Source: a virus
Lineage: Duplodnaviria > Caudoviricetes
Reading direction: 5' to 3' (one strand)
Virus record (IMG/VR): IMGVR_UViG_3300032274_000029
Location: 1 to 34,459 of that record
Length of the DNA stretch: 34,459 bases
Each line of letters opens with the position of its first letter. Position 1 is the stretch's first letter. The position numbers were made by a program, and so were the translations under genes. Shown one piece after another: positions 8,800 through 33,943 of this stretch. A model generated the notes under the pieces. The model was given only the letters and a program-made list of their open reading frames with translations, ran no database searches and was not told the origin of the DNA.

Positions 8800-8824
8800 T
8801 TGATATAATTTAATTTAATTTATA

Positions 8825-8855
8825 AAAAAGGAGTCTCTTTGAGGAGACTCCTTTT
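8825..8855 (-). terminator. terminator after major capsid gene; contains a variant of the 16-bp palindrome (GTCTCTTTGAGGAGAC, 8833-8848)
   Basis: AAAAGGAGTCTC/GAGACTCCTTTT stem with A/T tails. Confidence 0.75.
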
Positions 8856-16411: not shown

Positions 16412-16975
16412 TCATAATTTTATTGTTATTTGATGGTCAAACATTCGATATAGTTTTTCCCCATCCACTTCAAACTCGTATTCACTTTCAGGTTTAAAAC
16501 AGACCTTGTCCCCTGGATTTACATTTTGTGAACGCAGATAGTCGTTGCTATACTTTATTTCACCAACCAAAGGTTCTTCATTGGTGTTCTTATATAAATA
16601 GTAGTCTTCTGTAGGAAGAGGTTTAGTAAAGCAATACCTGCCACTAGTATTCCACTGCTTGCCATCATGATACATGTAAAACTGATCAGGCTCAACAAAA
16701 AATAAATCATCCATAAAAAAACTTCTTCCACTTTTACGTCTGCCCTGCATGTCATTGTAAAACTTAAATACGTTATGATGGACTAATAATTTATCTCCTG
16801 GTTTAATAGGACCATCATAAACAATTGGAGTGGCGATAACCTCTGCAATTCGATTTGAAGCTTTGTGGTTTTCCTCTGAAGTACTTGTTATAAAGTCTAC
16901 ATCACTAATTTTTTTAGTGTTGTTATACCTTTTATTGTTTAAGGGTTTGGTAATAAATAAGTAAGGTGATTTCAT
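16412..16975 (-). CDS. GroES-like (tandem co-chaperonin fold) protein
   Basis: two repeats of the KP...EV/EI...PGDK hydrophobic pattern typical of GroES beta-barrels. Confidence 0.5.
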   Translation of the reverse strand: MKSPYLFITKPLNNKRYNNTKKISDVDFITSTSEENHKASNRIAEVIATPIVYDGPIKPGDKLLVHHNVFKFYNDMQGRRKSGRSFFMDDLFFVEPDQFYMYHDGKQWNTSGRYCFTKPLPTEDYYLYKNTNEEPLVGEIKYSNDYLRSQNVNPGDKVCFKPESEYEFEVDGEKLYRMFDHQITIKL

Positions 16976-17226: not shown

Positions 17227-17234
17227 CAAATATA
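17227..17234 (-). promoter_or_regulatory. -7 promoter box (TATATTTG) for packaging operon
   Basis: TAnnTTTG just after terminator, 21 nt before ATG. Confidence 0.65.
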
Positions 17235-17237
17235 AGT

Positions 17238-17270
17238 AAAAAAAAATACCCCTAAATAAATAGAGGTATT
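17238..17270 (-). terminator. Rho-independent terminator
   Basis: AATACCTCTA/TAGGGGTATT stem followed by a T run on the minus strand. Confidence 0.8.
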
Positions 17271-17274
17271 CTAA

Positions 17275-17363
17275 GCGAAGAGGCGATCCTAATTGGCAAC
17301 TTCTCAAAGATGTAAGCCTAATTGACAATTTCACAAAGAAATAAGCCTAATTGAACACCTCGC
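17275..17363 (-). ncRNA. three-fold symmetric three-way-junction RNA with 3 x CAAUUAGG (29-nt period)
   Basis: repeat at 17288, 17317, 17346; stems contain G-U pairs valid only on the minus strand. Confidence 0.6.
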
Positions 17364-17378
17364 ATATTTTAAAACCCA

Positions 17379-18281
17379 TTAGTTCTTCTGCCTTACAGAA
17401 GGACCAGTAGCTCCTTGTGTTATTGTATATCCATTTACAAATTCATTATCATTACCATCATATTGATATTTTAACATTACTGGGTTTGATAAATCTCCAA
17501 ATATGTATGGCAACTCATGGTTTGTGTTTGTCCATGTAGGGTTTGGTATGCCTATAGCAAATTTCATTATAATTTGTGATGTTCTTAAGTCGAATGGATC
17601 ATCAGGAGTCACATTAGACCTAGGATGGTGTACCGTAAGCCTTGTACCCCAATAATTACCTGATGCCGTAGCAGGAAGTGAGGTCACTTCTGTATTTGTA
17701 CCATCAAACAAAAACGATAAAGGATTAAAAGGCACTTCAATATAAGTGGTAGGTCTCAGCGAAGCAAAGTCAGTTATCAATGATCCTGTCTTAGCAATCT
17801 TTAATTCACTATTTATATCCCACTCTGTTGTAATAGGAAATAAATTAAGATTAACCCCTGCATAAATAGCATCTTGTTGTGATGATGCCCAATTGCTTCC
17901 TGGAAAATTAGCTCTCTGATATAATCCATTGTCATGAGAAGGATGAATAAAATTAGCCCTTTTCATAACATACTCAAGAGAAGTAGGGTTCTTATAAGAT
18001 CTTGCCTTTTTATATCTAAACATAAAAAGCCTAGGATTTTTAGTTAACCACTCTGTTTCAACAGGTTTTTGCATATTTACAAAAGTACGTACACCAGGTT
18101 TTTTTAAAATATACATATATGGCGTAGGAATATCTAATGAGCCTGATGTGCCAATATATTCCTTTAATCCATCTACGGTAATGTTTTTAGTTACGTTTGT
18201 AGGCGTTCCATTTTCTTGACTAATAATAATCTTATCAGTCCCTTGTGGAGTTACGGTATTGTATGTGCTAATCTTTGGCAT
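17379..18281 (-). CDS. putative virion appendage protein
   Basis: 300 aa; N-terminal MPKISTY...TDKIII...TKNITV pattern common to tail appendage anchor domains. Confidence 0.5.
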   Translation of the reverse strand: MPKISTYNTVTPQGTDKIIISQENGTPTNVTKNITVDGLKEYIGTSGSLDIPTPYMYILKKPGVRTFVNMQKPVETEWLTKNPRLFMFRYKKARSYKNPTSLEYVMKRANFIHPSHDNGLYQRANFPGSNWASSQQDAIYAGVNLNLFPITTEWDINSELKIAKTGSLITDFASLRPTTYIEVPFNPLSFLFDGTNTEVTSLPATASGNYWGTRLTVHHPRSNVTPDDPFDLRTSQIIMKFAIGIPNPTWTNTNHELPYIFGDLSNPVMLKYQYDGNDNEFVNGYTITQGATGPSVRQKN

Positions 18282-18300: not shown

Positions 18301-18308
18301 CAAATATA
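18301..18308 (-). promoter_or_regulatory. -7 promoter box (TATATTTG)
   Basis: TAnnTTTG 19 nt before ATG 18281. Confidence 0.6.
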
Positions 18309-24720: not shown

Positions 24721-25155
24721 ATGAAATCAGACTACTTAAAATACTGGAGAGTAGTACGTCAGTTTATCAAAGTAAAACATAAACTAAGCCAGTCAGACTT
24801 AGACATACTATTATTCCTAAAGTCCGAAGAATACTTTTCAAAAGATAAGTTTAAAGAATTTGATGACCTAATAAGTTGGGAAAGAAATCGATTTGAAAGA
24901 CTAAGACAGGAAGGATGGATTGAGGTGTTTAGAAAAAGAATGGGAAAGAGAAAGGCTCTATATCAGCTCTCTCAAAAAGCAAAAAGGGTTACCACATCAA
25001 TATACAAATATCTCAATGGGAAAGAAATTCCTACAAGTAATGATGGCAACCCTATGTTCCTTAGAAACGTGTCATACACCGACAAGGTGTATCGAAATTT
25101 TATAATTAAGATGAACGCATTTATAAAACAACAACGACATCAGACTCAGAAATAA
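24721..25155 (+). CDS. winged-helix (MarR-like) DNA-binding protein
   Basis: LSQSDLDILLFL...FERLRQEGWIEV...LYQLSQKAK pattern. Confidence 0.6.
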   Translation: MKSDYLKYWRVVRQFIKVKHKLSQSDLDILLFLKSEEYFSKDKFKEFDDLISWERNRFERLRQEGWIEVFRKRMGKRKALYQLSQKAKRVTTSIYKYLNGKEIPTSNDGNPMFLRNVSYTDKVYRNFIIKMNAFIKQQRHQTQK

Positions 25156-25378
25156 CTGTGTGCTGAGTTCCGTTAATTACCATCTTATATCCTGCCCTTG
25201 AGTCATAGTATATCTCATCGGTAGTCTTTACTACTGCCACATCTGTACCAGGCATAACAACCACACCCTTCTTATACCTTAGGTCTTTTGTGTCTTCAGC
25301 AGTTAAAAGTATTCCTGACTCGGTGCTGATCTCTTCTTTGATTTCATCAATCACGATATATTTTCCTATTGGCTTCAT
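25121..25378 (-). CDS. groES: co-chaperonin GroES
   Basis: MKPIG..IVI, TESGILL mobile loop, ISESDVV; ATGA overlap with groEL. Confidence 0.85.
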   Translation of the reverse strand: MKPIGKYIVIDEIKEEISTESGILLTAEDTKDLRYKKGVVVMPGTDVAVVKTTDEIYYDSRAGYKMVINGTQHTVISESDVVVVL

Positions 25379-26997
25379 TCTGTCTCGTATGATCTAGCCA
25401 TTGTGATAATGGCGTTGGTTGATAAAATAGTTACTGCAACAGACACTGCGTTCTGGAGTGCTGACCTGGTTACCTTGGTAGGGTCAATGACACCCATCTC
25501 TATCAGGTCACCATACTCCTTAGTCTTCAAGTCATACCCATACTCAAATCCACTAAGGTAGTGGTCCTTGAGAATATCATCAGGATCTAGTCCTGCGTTT
25601 ATAAGTATCTGTCTCCATGGAGCTTGCAGAGCATTGTACATAATATCTCTCGCTACCATAAGCTCCTTGGTTTCTTTTTCTTCATCTCTACTGAAGTGAA
25701 AGGGTGCACATATTTTTGCTAGTGCCATTCCTGCTCCTGGAAGAATACCCTCCTCTAATGCTGAACGTACTGCACACACTGCATCATCTACCCTGTCATA
25801 CAACTCCTTCTGCTCAAGGTCTGTGTTTCCTCCGACATGGATGACTCCTATCCCTCCTGTTAAGGAGGCGATTCGCTGAAGAATAAAGTCCTTGTCGTGC
25901 TTCTGCTTGGTTACCTTGTGTGCATCCCACAACTCAGCCACTCTCTGGTCCACATCCTTGTTTTCCTCAGCCTCACTTAAAATCACAGAAGAGTCCCTCC
26001 CAACTATCACCCTGGAAGCAAACCCTAAGTCTGTAAATTCAATGAGGCTTAAATCGTCACCTGTCTTTTCTGAAAAGTATGTAGCTCCAACAGACACTGC
26101 AATGTCCTGCATCAGCTCGTGCTGACGATATCCAAAGTTAGGTGGTGGAACTGTACATAAATGCAGTCCCCTCTTCTGAACATTGGCAGCCAAGGTCGCT
26201 ATCACATTGGTCGTACATGGTGATATAATTAATAATTTTTTCTTATCTTGTATGATTGGTTTCAACACATTCTCTATCTGTAGGATGTTACTGATCTCTG
26301 CATCACACACAAGTATGTGCACATCATCCAACACACACTCGTCTTTCTTTTGGTGGTTTATAAACATCGGTGACGAATATCCCTTGTCTATCTTAATACC
26401 CTTCGTGGTTTCATAAAAAGTATCTGGTGTTGGTGAGTTCTCAACAGTGACTATGCCGTTCTGACCAACCTCATTGTAGCAGTCAGAGATTATCTTGCCT
26501 ATAAACTTGTCGTTATTGGCTGATATAGTTGCCACATCAACTAGCCTCTTCTTTGTTACCTTCTTGCTATGCTTCTTTAAAGACTTAACTAAGTCCTCGG
26601 TCTCACTTGTCAGGTATCTAAGAACATCTGTCTTATTTACATCACTAGTAATCCTACCCAAACCTTGCTTGACCAGTGCCTCTGTCAACACTATAGCAGT
26701 GGTTGTTCCATCTCCTGCTGAGGTAGCAGTCCTAGACGATGCTTCTTTCATCATCTTTACTGCGAGATTGCCGACAGGGTCTGCCATGTCATAACTCTTA
26801 GCAACAGTGACACCATCCTTGGTGACTGTCATTCCATGCGTGTGATGTGGTGACTCAATTATTACTGTCTGACCCATAGGTCCTAGTGTGCTCTTGACTG
26901 CACTCGATATCATCTCGATACCATGAAGTAGTTTCTCTTGCGAGTCTTCACCTATTGTAAGTTCCTTAGGTGAATACCCTCCCATTGGATTATTCAT
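25375..26997 (-). CDS. groEL: chaperonin GroEL (start corrected to ATG 26997)
   Basis: TLGP.G, VTKDGVTVAK, AGDGTTTA, EEGILPGAG, GVIDP.KV.RSAL motifs; -7 box at 27024-27031 lies inside the longer ORF call. Confidence 0.95.
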   Translation of the reverse strand: MNNPMGGYSPKELTIGEDSQEKLLHGIEMISSAVKSTLGPMGQTVIIESPHHTHGMTVTKDGVTVAKSYDMADPVGNLAVKMMKEASSRTATSAGDGTTTAIVLTEALVKQGLGRITSDVNKTDVLRYLTSETEDLVKSLKKHSKKVTKKRLVDVATISANNDKFIGKIISDCYNEVGQNGIVTVENSPTPDTFYETTKGIKIDKGYSSPMFINHQKKDECVLDDVHILVCDAEISNILQIENVLKPIIQDKKKLLIISPCTTNVIATLAANVQKRGLHLCTVPPPNFGYRQHELMQDIAVSVGATYFSEKTGDDLSLIEFTDLGFASRVIVGRDSSVILSEAEENKDVDQRVAELWDAHKVTKQKHDKDFILQRIASLTGGIGVIHVGGNTDLEQKELYDRVDDAVCAVRSALEEGILPGAGMALAKICAPFHFSRDEEKETKELMVARDIMYNALQAPWRQILINAGLDPDDILKDHYLSGFEYGYDLKTKEYGDLIEMGVIDPTKVTRSALQNAVSVAVTILSTNAIITMARSYETE

Positions 26998-27056
26998 TTG
27001 ATTTGATTTAAATGTTATGCAAACAAATATACAATAATTATTCCATTGCAGAGGTC

Positions 27057-27255
27057 TGTGACAATGTGACAAATTTTTTTCCCTATACTCTTATATATTT
27101 TTACCTCCTTTATTATAAACTACTCCCTATACAACCTTTTAAAACTGTCACAAACTGTCACAACTCTAATAATCAAATAGTTAAGTATTTAAATTCGTCA
27201 TAAAGTTGACATTTAATTGTCACAAAACTATTATAAACTACTATAAACTGTCACA
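27057..27255. repeat. iteron-like array: 2 x TGTGACA followed by 4 x TGTCACA
   Basis: copies at 27057, 27065, 27146, 27156, 27218, 27249 in AT-rich DNA. Confidence 0.75.
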
Positions 27256-28383: not shown

Positions 28384-28791
28384 ATGAGAACAAGAAATGG
28401 AAGTAGAGCAACAAAAGGATTTAAGAACAGAGAGATGAATGATGATACCTACAAGCTAAGAAGAGCAGTAATGACAATCATTTATGAATTCAAGCACAGA
28501 TACGATATACCAAGACAAACAATCAGAATCGTAGATAGAGTACATGGGGAAGAAACACATGATGGATGGCATAGAGTTATTGGGTATGCAGGTATGGGTC
28601 AAAACTATGTACATATCCGAGGAGATTGGGCAGGAAAGAGTAGAGCAAAATTACTGCCATTAGTAGCACATGAGATATGCCATTCGGTTAAGGCAATCAA
28701 TCACGATGATGACTGCAAGTTGATGTCACCAACAATTGTAGATATGACTGAAGATGAAGTATGGAAAGCATGTGACAAGTATCTAAGCTAG
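28384..28791 (+). CDS. zinc metallopeptidase-like protein
   Basis: AHEICHSVKAINH...CKLM (HExxH + third His + Met-turn-like). Confidence 0.65.
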   Translation: MRTRNGSRATKGFKNREMNDDTYKLRRAVMTIIYEFKHRYDIPRQTIRIVDRVHGEETHDGWHRVIGYAGMGQNYVHIRGDWAGKSRAKLLPLVAHEICHSVKAINHDDDCKLMSPTIVDMTEDEVWKACDKYLS

Positions 28792-28857
28792 TCTCTTTGA
28801 AGAGACAAACTGCAGGTGTCATGGATGACCTTGAGCAAAGCGAAATTGCTACCTGCA
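28791..28857 (+). ncRNA. 16-bp palindrome followed by a three-way-junction RNA motif
   Basis: GTCTCTTTGAAGAGAC, then TGCAGGT/ACCTGCA enclosing GTCA/TGAC and AGCAA/TTGCT hairpins. Confidence 0.55.
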
Positions 28858-30493: not shown

Positions 30494-30500
30494 TGGTAAA

Positions 30501-30534
30501 ATGTGGGGTGTCTCTTCGAAGAGACATCCTGCAT
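30501..30534 (+). repeat. extended hairpin containing the 16-bp palindrome (30510-30525)
   Basis: 15-bp stem with three G-U pairs, UCGA loop. Confidence 0.8.
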
Positions 30535-30584
30535 CTGTATCGAGATGTGCATCTCGGCTGACGATTCCAAAAGGATGAAACAGA
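30534..30584 (+). ncRNA. type III hammerhead ribozyme (predicted cleavage after GUA, 30539)
   Basis: UCUG-UA, stem I UCGAGAU/AUCUCGG, CUGACGA, stem II UCC/GGA, GAAA, CAGA. Confidence 0.8.
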
Positions 30585-32710: not shown

Positions 32711-32731
32711 TCTAATATTAATCAGAAGTCT

Positions 32732-32747
32732 GTCTCTTCAAAGAGAC
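32732..32747. repeat. 16-bp palindrome GTCTCTTCAAAGAGAC
   Basis: seen directly, between promoter and ATG 32769. Confidence 0.9.
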
Positions 32748-32768
32748 TCTTCGCAAATCAGAATGCAC

Positions 32769-33836
32769 ATGTGTGTAATTATTATCAAACAGAAAGGCGA
32801 GGTAATGCCTAGAGAAATTGCCAAAACATCTAGTAAGATTAATCCTCATGGATTAGGAATTGTATGGCTCGATACATTCGAGGTAACTTATCACAAATCA
32901 AGCGAGTATCAGTTACTACTCACCAACAGACCTTTTATTGCTCACTTTAGATATGCTACCATTGGTGTTGTGTCTAAGGCTAATACGCATCCATTCAGAT
33001 GTGGCAACAACGTAGATGAGTTGCTCATGCAGAATGGTACAGTAAAAGGTTACGGCTCAAGTAAAATGACTGACTCAGAAGACTTAGCAATTAGGTTGGG
33101 AGATGTTCCTCGTGAACAATGGAAACAATCATTAGAGAAATTTGACTCAAGGTTTGTTACCATCAACACAAGAACAAGAACATTTCAAATGTACAACAGA
33201 GACCTATGGGTAAAACGTGGTGACATTTGGTATTCTAAACCAAACGTGTTGCAGGACAATCTTGTGGCTACGTATGGCACACTTAAAAAAGGCGAGAGCA
33301 ATCATCACTATGTACGAACTGCAAAGTACGTAGGAAGAGGTAAAACAGTTCAGAGGTATCCATTGGTCATCAATGGATTGCCATTCCTTTATAAAGAGGC
33401 AGGTGTTGGTTATCAAGTAGAGGTTGATGTATTCAAGGTTAGTGATTCAAGGTTAGAAAGAATGGATGCTTTAGAAAGTCACCCAAGATGGTACAAGCGA
33501 GAGCAGGTACTAATCGAGGTTGATGGTAAAGAGTTGACTTGTTGGGTATACTTTATGACTGATGCTAGAAACAAGCGTGAAGACCTGCATAAAAGTTTCA
33601 GCAGAAAACACAAGTCTAAATTCAGAACTCAATACACATTCGATAGCTTGTATAACATAGCTGATGAAGTTGATGAGGTTGAGCAGGCATCACTGTTTGA
33701 TTCAGTGTCGATAGAAGACGAAACTCCGTACTGTACGAATTGCTTTCACGACTTAGAGTATGATGGTTTCTCTCATTACCATTGTAACGGATGTGACTCG
33801 TGGTTCACAGAGACAGAGGCACAGTCTTCTATCTAA
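32769..33836 (+). CDS. class II glutamine amidotransferase fused to gamma-glutamylcyclotransferase and a C-terminal Zn ribbon
   Basis: M-C N-terminus, NPHGLG, HFRYAT, NTHPF, (Q)NG; YGTLKKG..NH...MDALE..P.WYKR; CTNC...CNGC. Confidence 0.85.
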   Translation: MCVIIIKQKGEVMPREIAKTSSKINPHGLGIVWLDTFEVTYHKSSEYQLLLTNRPFIAHFRYATIGVVSKANTHPFRCGNNVDELLMQNGTVKGYGSSKMTDSEDLAIRLGDVPREQWKQSLEKFDSRFVTINTRTRTFQMYNRDLWVKRGDIWYSKPNVLQDNLVATYGTLKKGESNHHYVRTAKYVGRGKTVQRYPLVINGLPFLYKEAGVGYQVEVDVFKVSDSRLERMDALESHPRWYKREQVLIEVDGKELTCWVYFMTDARNKREDLHKSFSRKHKSKFRTQYTFDSLYNIADEVDEVEQASLFDSVSIEDETPYCTNCFHDLEYDGFSHYHCNGCDSWFTETEAQSSI

Positions 33837-33842
33837 TCATTT

Positions 33843-33866
33843 GGGAGTCTCTTCAAAGAGACTCCT
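33843..33866 (+). repeat. hairpin containing 16-bp palindrome GTCTCTTCAAAGAGAC (33847-33862)
   Basis: GGGAGTCTCT/AGAGACTCCT. Confidence 0.85.
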
Positions 33867-33867
33867 T

Positions 33868-33918
33868 TCTGTTTACAGATGAGTGTCTGTACTGATGATT
33901 CTGAAAAGATGAAACAGA
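33868..33918 (+). ncRNA. type III hammerhead ribozyme (predicted cleavage after GUU, 33873)
   Basis: UCUG-UU, stem I UACAGAU/GUCUGUA, CUGAUGA, stem II UCU/AGA, GAAA, CAGA. Confidence 0.8.
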
Positions 33919-33943
33919 TTGGTTAAATTAAATTTTTTAAATT

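What the first reader, a model, noticed from the sequence alone, without database searches (positions are those of the whole stretch)
17275..17363. Three-fold symmetric RNA with three CAAUUAGG junction repeats before a terminator
Seen on the minus strand: GAGGUG-UUC AAUUA GGC-UU-AUUUC-UUUGU-GAAAU-U-GUC AAUUA GGC-UU-ACAUC-UUUGA-GAAGU-U-GCC AAUUA GGA-U-CGCCUC, followed directly by a terminator. This folds as a three-way junction whose arms all open GG and close YC, joined by identical AAUUA linkers, with an exact 29-nt period. Three G-U pairs work only on the minus (sense) strand. Inference: a multivalent ncRNA, for example a protein sponge, a ligand for a trimeric protein, or a mimic of repeat-array antitoxin RNA (type III toxin-antitoxin antitoxins are short repeats followed by a terminator). 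I do not recognise it as a known family.
Basis: partly seen in the sequence, partly recalled or inferred. Interest (0 to 1): 0.75.

Follow-up and report, generated by a model that had tools for sequence, protein, structure and literature searches.

The report
Three-armed RNA partners phage fibre trimer
An 89-base stretch, predicted to fold as an RNA with three matching arms, sits directly behind one type of fibre-like phage gene and travels with it across distantly related phages; it likely binds three copies of that gene's protein, which is predicted to form a trio, and would help them assemble.

Summary
The element is real. Three 29-nt units form a three-way junction: 23 of 27 pairs change on both sides in 33 relatives, and G-U outnumbers A-C 72 to 2 on the sense strand. 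No Rfam family matches. It does not follow the downstream terminase operon. It follows the unnamed C-terminal domain of the upstream 300-aa fibre-like gene: in 70 loci sharing this gene slot, 37 have domain and RNA, 33 have neither. Relatives at about 20-25% identity also carry a branched RNA right after the stop, three-fold repeated with a 28-34 nt period in 8 of 14 protein clusters; 2 of 41 control genes scored, one a missed family member. The domain has a basic hairpin, and a relative modelled as three copies scores 0.76 against 0.00 for controls. Best reading: the RNA binds the trimer, one arm per subunit, and templates assembly. Binding, expression and function are untested. The type III antitoxin reading is not supported. 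This scan noted the same kind of module on other phage DNA (e1-8182651, e1-9806600).

The parts
17275..17363 (-). Three-armed RNA: three 29-nt units (9-nt strand, 5-nt linker, 10-nt strand with one bulged base, 5-nt loop or its open equivalent)
17353..17361 (-). P1 5' strand (GAGGUGUUC); in this copy also complementary to the 5' arm of the terminator
17348..17352 (-). Linker 1 (AAUUA)
17324..17347 (-). Arm 2 hairpin
   Evidence: 8 of 9 pairs change on both sides
17319..17323 (-). Linker 2 (AAUUA)
17295..17318 (-). Arm 3 hairpin
   Evidence: 9 of 9 pairs change on both sides
17290..17294 (-). Linker 3 (AAUUA)
17280..17289 (-). P1 3' strand
   Evidence: 6 of 9 pairs change on both sides, 3 never vary
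17238..17272 (-). Intrinsic-terminator-like hairpin and U-run
17379..18281 (-). 300-aa partner gene: N-terminal anchor (about residues 1-45) shared with fibre-like proteins, then an unnamed domain (about 50-300) with an Ig/FN3-like core and a basic hairpin (FRYKKARSYK...KRANFIHPSH)
18301..18308 (-). TAnnTTTG match 27 nt before the start codon (Bacteroidota promoter consensus, recalled); the gene and RNA would be one short transcript
   Evidence: a match lies within 70 nt of the start in 30 of 49 relatives
17227..17234 (-). TAnnTTTG match behind the terminator, ahead of the 76-aa, GroES-like, 111-aa, terminase and portal genes (context, not part of the module)

Best explanation
The element is a three-armed RNA structure, kept by compensating base changes, that lies directly behind the stop codon of one fibre-like phage gene and travels with that gene's C-terminal domain; it likely binds three copies of the domain, one per arm, and so likely acts as an RNA template that brings the predicted trimer together. 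Shown: the fold, the sense strand, the strict link to the domain, the 28-30 nt period. Predicted: the domain self-associates head to tail as three copies. Inferred: the basic hairpin of each subunit grips one linker and the stem beside it; binding pulls the RNA from its rod-like alternative folds into the junction; because the RNA is the 3' end of the same message, newly made subunits meet it first. Whether the RNA is released or stays on the particle is open.
For: Covariation: 93.7% of 891 cells pair, 23 of 27 pairs change on both sides, slid controls 33-52% paired; RNAalifold finds the same junction unprompted; 72 G-U against 2 A-C. Link to the domain: 37 of 70 loci have both, 33 of 70 neither, 10 of 80 dropped as too short; phages with the same anchor and terminator but another C-terminal domain lack the RNA (L063, L066, L067); RNA and domain stay together where the downstream gene differs (L238, L257, L258, L261, L270). 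Depth: 8 of 14 protein clusters show a three-fold repeat at p = 0.024, the floor for 40 shuffles, with periods 28-34; best period 28-30 in 56 of 60 near relatives; controls 2 of 41, one being a divergent family member found blind. The three units change together: 88% identical within an RNA, 69% between RNAs. Protein: basic hairpin kept through the family; three copies of relative P0128 score 0.76, best control 0.00, a mark reached by 20 of 30 solved pairs and 1 of 23 single chains, runs agreeing in at least 36% of contacts, pLDDT at least 66, with a residue 234-234 contact that fits an axis. The domain ends proteins with many different N-termini, several in tail, baseplate or fibre context.
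Against: No binding, expression or assembly data. Nothing here separates an assembly template from a permanent part or a regulator. 6 of 14 clusters show no significant three-fold repeat (L280, L282, L290, L327, L344, L408), L280 has a larger RNA of about 220 nt, L254 has two units, and L298, L410 and L411 look more like three hairpins in a row. The complex model is of P0128, 23% identical to the window's protein and with no known locus; the test was calibrated on two copies, and only contacts of one copy are listed, so larger rings are not excluded. The fibre role is inferred from the anchor and gene context; the domain has no Pfam or PHROG match. Linker type follows the protein tree, but kin share labels, so this is no proof of co-evolution.
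Confidence: 0.45

Rival explanations
1. Feedback switch: the trimer binds the three arms of its own message and thereby sets termination or message stability, in the manner of TRAP (recalled).
For: The RNA abuts a terminator in near relatives. In five distant members a U-run follows the closing stem closely (L281, L285, L327, L344, L408). In the window the P1 5' strand pairs better with the terminator arm than with its own partner (-13.0 against -10.4), and the GAGG/CCUC pairs hardly vary. The junction is not the lowest-energy fold (median 5.4 kcal/mol above), as a switch would need.
Against: The terminator pairing wins in only 1 of 38 sequences (median -7.3 against -12.9). The downstream operon has its own promoter-like match, downstream genes vary, and close relatives use the same terminator without the RNA.
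Confidence: 0.2
2. The RNA stays on the mature particle as a structural or host-binding part of the fibre tip.
For: The domain fills a slot where relatives carry exchangeable tip domains on the same anchor. Its basic hairpin is kept across the family. Arm length is held at about 29 nt while loops and stems vary.
Against: No processing site that would free a short RNA was identified, and an internal promoter-like match near the gene end is seen in only 20 of 49. Exposed RNA would face nucleases in water (inference). No cultured phage with the module was found to check.
Confidence: 0.18
3. The domain is a nucleic-acid-binding or cutting effector carried on the particle, and the RNA masks it inside the producing cell, like an RNA antitoxin placed behind its gene.
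For: His-Pro-x-His and Thr-Glu are the best kept residues and the domain is very basic; a ratio of three proteins to three RNA units is known from ToxIN (PMC3401426, passages).
Against: No nuclease or defence family matches; the core resembles Ig/FN3 sandwiches at Z 5.7 or less; several kept residues lie in the predicted subunit interface.
Confidence: 0.1
4. A DNA-level site (packaging start, iterons, cruciform) or an RNA tied to the downstream terminase operon.
For: It lies 70 bases upstream of the operon with terminase and portal genes and has three direct repeats.
Against: Absent from 33 of 70 loci that keep that operon, present where the operon is replaced; pairs covary and wobble pairs fall on one strand, 72 against 2.
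Confidence: 0.04
5. Mimic of a host type III antitoxin or a sponge for a host protein.
For: Tandem repeats followed by a terminator match the ToxI layout.
Against: Loops can form 4 pairs with a linker in at most 9% of sequences; the RNA was not seen without the upstream domain; linker sequence differs between subfamilies.
Confidence: 0.03

Closest known systems
Tail-fibre assembly chaperones (T4 gp38/gp57A, lambda and Mu Tfa, C-terminal intramolecular chaperone domains; recalled)
   Same: Encoded directly behind the fibre gene, exchanged together with the C-terminal domain, matched to a trimer.
   Different: Those are proteins; here the partner is non-coding, and a chaperone role is inferred only.
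Phage phi29 pRNA (PMC12084888, search listing and start of abstract; details recalled)
   Same: A phage RNA with a three-way junction that serves as a part in particle assembly.
   Different: pRNA is asymmetric, forms rings through loop pairing and serves the packaging motor. This RNA has three like arms in one chain, loop-loop pairing of 4 bases is possible in only 30%, and it does not follow the terminase genes.
Type III antitoxin ToxI of ToxIN (PMC3401426, passages)
   Same: Short tandem repeats before a terminator; three proteins to three RNA units.
   Different: ToxI lies upstream of its toxin gene and forms pseudoknots; here the RNA lies behind its partner gene, forms nested stems, and no toxin family matched.
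TRAP attenuation in Bacillus (recalled)
   Same: A symmetric protein ring reading repeated RNA units beside a terminator.
   Different: TRAP binds single-stranded triplets in a leader; here the units are stem-loops at a 3' end, and an antiterminator is not conserved.

Membership tests
Any Rfam 15 family | Score at or above the gathering threshold | tested here: not met
   0 hits in the window and in 20 loci chosen across subfamilies; best local match E = 0.095, 24 bits against a threshold of 52
Type III toxin-antitoxin antitoxin | Repeats, then terminator, then the cognate toxin gene | tested here: not met
   The order looks alike, but the RNA follows the upstream gene and not the downstream one
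Type III toxin-antitoxin antitoxin | Neighbouring ToxN-type endoribonuclease | tested here: not met
   No toxin family in Pfam, PHROGs or PADLOC for the 300-aa or the 76-aa protein; a very remote relative could be missed
Type III toxin-antitoxin antitoxin | Pseudoknot in each repeat | tested here: not met
   Nested covarying stems; loop-linker pairing of 4 bases in at most 9% of 33 sequences
Type III toxin-antitoxin antitoxin | Cut into monomers and neutralises the toxin | not testable with these tools
   needs experiment
phi29-type packaging RNA | Tied to the packaging motor genes | tested here: not met
   Absent from 33 of 70 loci with the same downstream operon
phi29-type packaging RNA | Conserved complementary loops | tested here: not met
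   4 or more pairs between the two loops in 30% of 33 sequences
Tail-fibre chaperone cassette | Partner encoded behind the fibre gene and exchanged with its C-terminal domain | tested here: met
Tail-fibre chaperone cassette | Partner is a protein | tested here: not met
   The partner is a 89-nt non-coding stretch between stop codon and terminator
Tail-fibre chaperone cassette | Client is a trimeric particle fibre | tested here: inconclusive
   Three-copy model passes for a 23% identical relative; anchor shared with a 648-aa fibre-like protein, 17 of 44 identical; presence in particles not shown
Tail-fibre chaperone cassette | Needed for folding or trimer formation | not testable with these tools
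   needs expression with and without the RNA
Protein-dependent attenuator (TRAP-like) | Conserved antiterminator that competes with the bound fold | tested here: inconclusive
   Wins in 1 of 38 (the window itself); -8 kcal/mol or better in 15 of 38

The most novel reading that the evidence does not exclude
A widespread class of phage fibre tips is a ribonucleoprotein: a trimeric domain clamps a three-fold symmetric RNA cut from its own message, and the RNA both templates the trimer and stays on the mature particle as part of the host-contact tip.
Probability: 0.18. Interest if true: 0.95.

Novelty: categorically new. Interest (0 to 1): 0.82.

Why it matters
The RNA part of phage assembly that I know of is the pRNA of phi29-like packaging motors (recalled). 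Here an unnamed protein domain found on many kinds of phage fibre, tail and baseplate-region proteins keeps an RNA with three like arms and a spacing of about 29 nt, while protein identity falls to about 20-25% and the RNA sequence changes wholly. If the RNA templates or decorates the trimer, it is an RNA counterpart of tail-fibre chaperones and a natural symmetric RNA-protein scaffold with subfamily-specific linkers. It is small and directly testable: one domain of about 250 residues and one RNA of about 90 bases.

Tried and rejected
Rfam: nothing. Pfam, PHROGs, PADLOC, PDB sequences and the ESM Atlas: nothing for the domain; phrog_7946 matched only N-termini. Fold searches gave no match with E up to 0.001 and only Ig/FN3-like rows at Z 5.7 or less; one viral model, A0A6M2VBU5, topped both searches (E 1.2e-3 and 3.7e-3) and could not be identified. 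Cultured phages: no domain match with five queries (one search matched only an N-terminus) nor by profile in two related genomes. Host genomes: 2 of 401 and 2 of 39 sampled, the centre genome included in each. Motif scans also returned non-family rows: 11 of 27, 45 of 47 and 29 of 42. RNA runs: four metatranscriptome contig sets held only short pieces of relatives, one touching a related element; they show nothing on expression. Literature: searches listed no paper on this module (listings only); six terms were not found in the searchable supplements of PMC10690425, but three of six files were not searched and three more could not be read, so the RNA may be among its unnamed candidates. Searches for particle proteomics of Elemovirus found nothing useful. 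An extra pairing of the linkers with each other was considered and dropped: AACUA is matched by AGUUA in some copies only.

Full report
Setting. The window is part of a phage genome with portal, large terminase, GroEL and two GroES-like genes. Its terminase is 46% identical to that of Flavobacterium elemo phages and 71% to an uncultured spring phage. The element lies on the minus strand between the stop of a 300-aa gene (17379-18281) and a terminator-like hairpin.

The observation. Three copies of CAATTAGG are spaced 29 and 29 bases apart. Relatives settle the structure. From 60 distinct near relatives, 38 were of the window's type, and the 33 without insertions or deletions were aligned. Of 27 pairs, 23 change on both sides, 93.7% of cells pair, and slid controls give 33-52%. 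RNAalifold predicts the same junction. Wobble pairs fall on the sense strand, 72 G-U against 2 A-C, which fits RNA and not a double-stranded site. Each arm is three pairs, one bulged base and six pairs; linkers are AAUUA, AGUUA or AACUA. Units are 88% identical within an RNA and 69% between RNAs, so the three arms change together. No Rfam family matches.

What it travels with. I fetched 80 of 538 loci with the downstream 76-aa gene. In the 70 with enough upstream sequence, 37 have both the RNA and the C-terminal domain of the 300-aa protein, and 33 have neither. The upstream slot keeps a short N-terminal anchor and exchanges what follows; the anchor also heads a 648-aa fibre-like protein and, by eye, two proteins of a cultured elemo phage. 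Close relatives with another domain keep the terminator and lose the RNA. Conversely, 31 of 32 hits of an RNA-only pattern have the domain directly upstream; the other begins 10 bases into its contig. Among 105 loci found through the protein, 3 had no stop in the locus, one ended 14 bases after it, one (L254) has two units, and the rest show the three-unit RNA by eye, also where the downstream gene differs. A repeat test passes in 49 of 60 distinct near relatives, and the best period is 28-30 in 56 of 60. Linkers change by subfamily (AAUUA, AGUUA, AGUGU, CAGGUU, GGUUU) and follow the protein tree, which by itself shows only shared descent.

Depth of the link. A profile search found 136 proteins, most of them with the same domain behind varied N-termini. 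It has no Pfam or PHROG name. Motif scans located distant members: 13 of 13 hits in the first scan, and further ones. Clustered at 50% identity there are 14 groups with downstream sequence. Eight show a three-fold repeat at the floor p of 0.024, with periods 28-30 in seven and 30/34 in one; six do not. In sampled folds a branched structure with two long inner stems dominates in 9 of 15 representatives; it does not in the window, L327 or L376, and is partial in L279, L408 and L410. Of 41 unrelated genes from the same loci, 2 passed the repeat test; one, L298, proved to be a tail-like protein of 900 or more residues ending in a divergent copy of the domain, followed by three 29-nt hairpins. L411 also has 29-nt hairpin repeats, cut by the contig end. 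Neighbours include collagen-type fibre genes, a tail or baseplate gene and lysis-like genes.

The protein. AlphaFold gives a beta-sandwich (pLDDT 69 for the window's protein; 83 for relative P0128) resembling Ig/FN3 folds only weakly (Z 5.7, rmsd 3.7, 97 aligned). Two strands form a hairpin rich in Arg and Lys throughout the family. Three copies of P0128 (residues 36-273) score 0.76 against 0.00 for the best of three controls; that mark was reached by 20 of 30 solved pairs and 1 of 23 single chains; runs agree in at least 36% of contacts at pLDDT 66 or more. Each copy uses two different faces, and residue 234 touches itself, as expected near an axis. The test was calibrated on two copies, and P0128 is 23% identical to the window's protein.

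Mechanism. Shown: fold, strand, strict pairing with the domain, conserved spacing. Predicted: self-association as three copies. Inferred: one arm per subunit through the basic hairpin. I put binding of the RNA by this domain at about 0.8. For its purpose I favour an assembly template (0.45): position and exchange pattern match those of tail-fibre chaperones (recalled), and a promoter-like match upstream would make gene and RNA one message. A feedback switch (0.2) has real support in this copy, whose P1 strand pairs better with the terminator arm, but that holds in 1 of 38. A permanent part of the particle (0.18) and an effector-masking RNA (0.1) remain open.

Comparison. By the criteria in PMC3401426 (passages) this is not a type III antitoxin: wrong partner position, no pseudoknot, no toxin match. 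It is not a pRNA: no tie to the terminase genes, no conserved loop pairing. Five literature searches listed nothing on the module (listings only), and part of the supplements of PMC10690425 could not be searched. Two unchecked notes of this scan describe the same kind of module on other phages; I did not see their sequences.

Verdict. Real, deeply conserved, outside the catalogued families, with a named candidate partner and simple tests. Interest 0.82; function unproven.

Noticed in passing
window 33866-33920 (+) and 30534-30584 (+): Two hammerhead-like elements. The first matches Rfam Hammerhead_3 at E = 3.8e-4, 31.9 bits, below the threshold of 48.5; the second is a 75% identical copy. Each directly follows a hairpin of the family below.
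   Followed up: partly
window 8820-8850, 28790-28811, 30497-30527, 32719-32749, 33834-33864: Dispersed hairpin family with a GTCTC...GAGAC stem; two copies bracket the 379-aa gene with a gamma-glutamyl cyclotransferase match.
   Followed up: no
L280 (also L286, L289), about 220 nt after the stop of the family gene: A much larger branched RNA closed by a long stem, behind the same domain; no three-fold repeat.
   Followed up: partly
L254, after position 2383: Two-unit version of the RNA; a real loss of one arm or an assembly collapse.
   Followed up: no
L410, after position 2127: Three hairpin repeats with a 28-nt period, a terminator-like stem, then the start of a second copy of the same array.
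   Followed up: no
L279 and L288, between the three-armed RNA and the terminator: A second hairpin, identical in two phages whose three-armed RNAs differ wholly.
   Followed up: no
L300 and L301: The family gene heads a run of paralogous genes with a shared N-terminus; one matches collagen-type tail fibres.
   Followed up: partly
L063, L066, L067, between the upstream gene and the terminator: Where another domain fills the slot, a different short conserved hairpin replaces the three-armed RNA.
   Followed up: no
G002 (L407, L408): One Bacteroidetes genome bin holds two family genes with unrelated N-termini, each followed by its own branched RNA and a U-run.
   Followed up: partly
window 25121-27072 and 16412-16975 (-): Phage-encoded GroEL with a GroES beside it, and a second, 187-aa GroES-like gene in the terminase operon; the same layout occurs in cultured elemo phages.
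   Followed up: no
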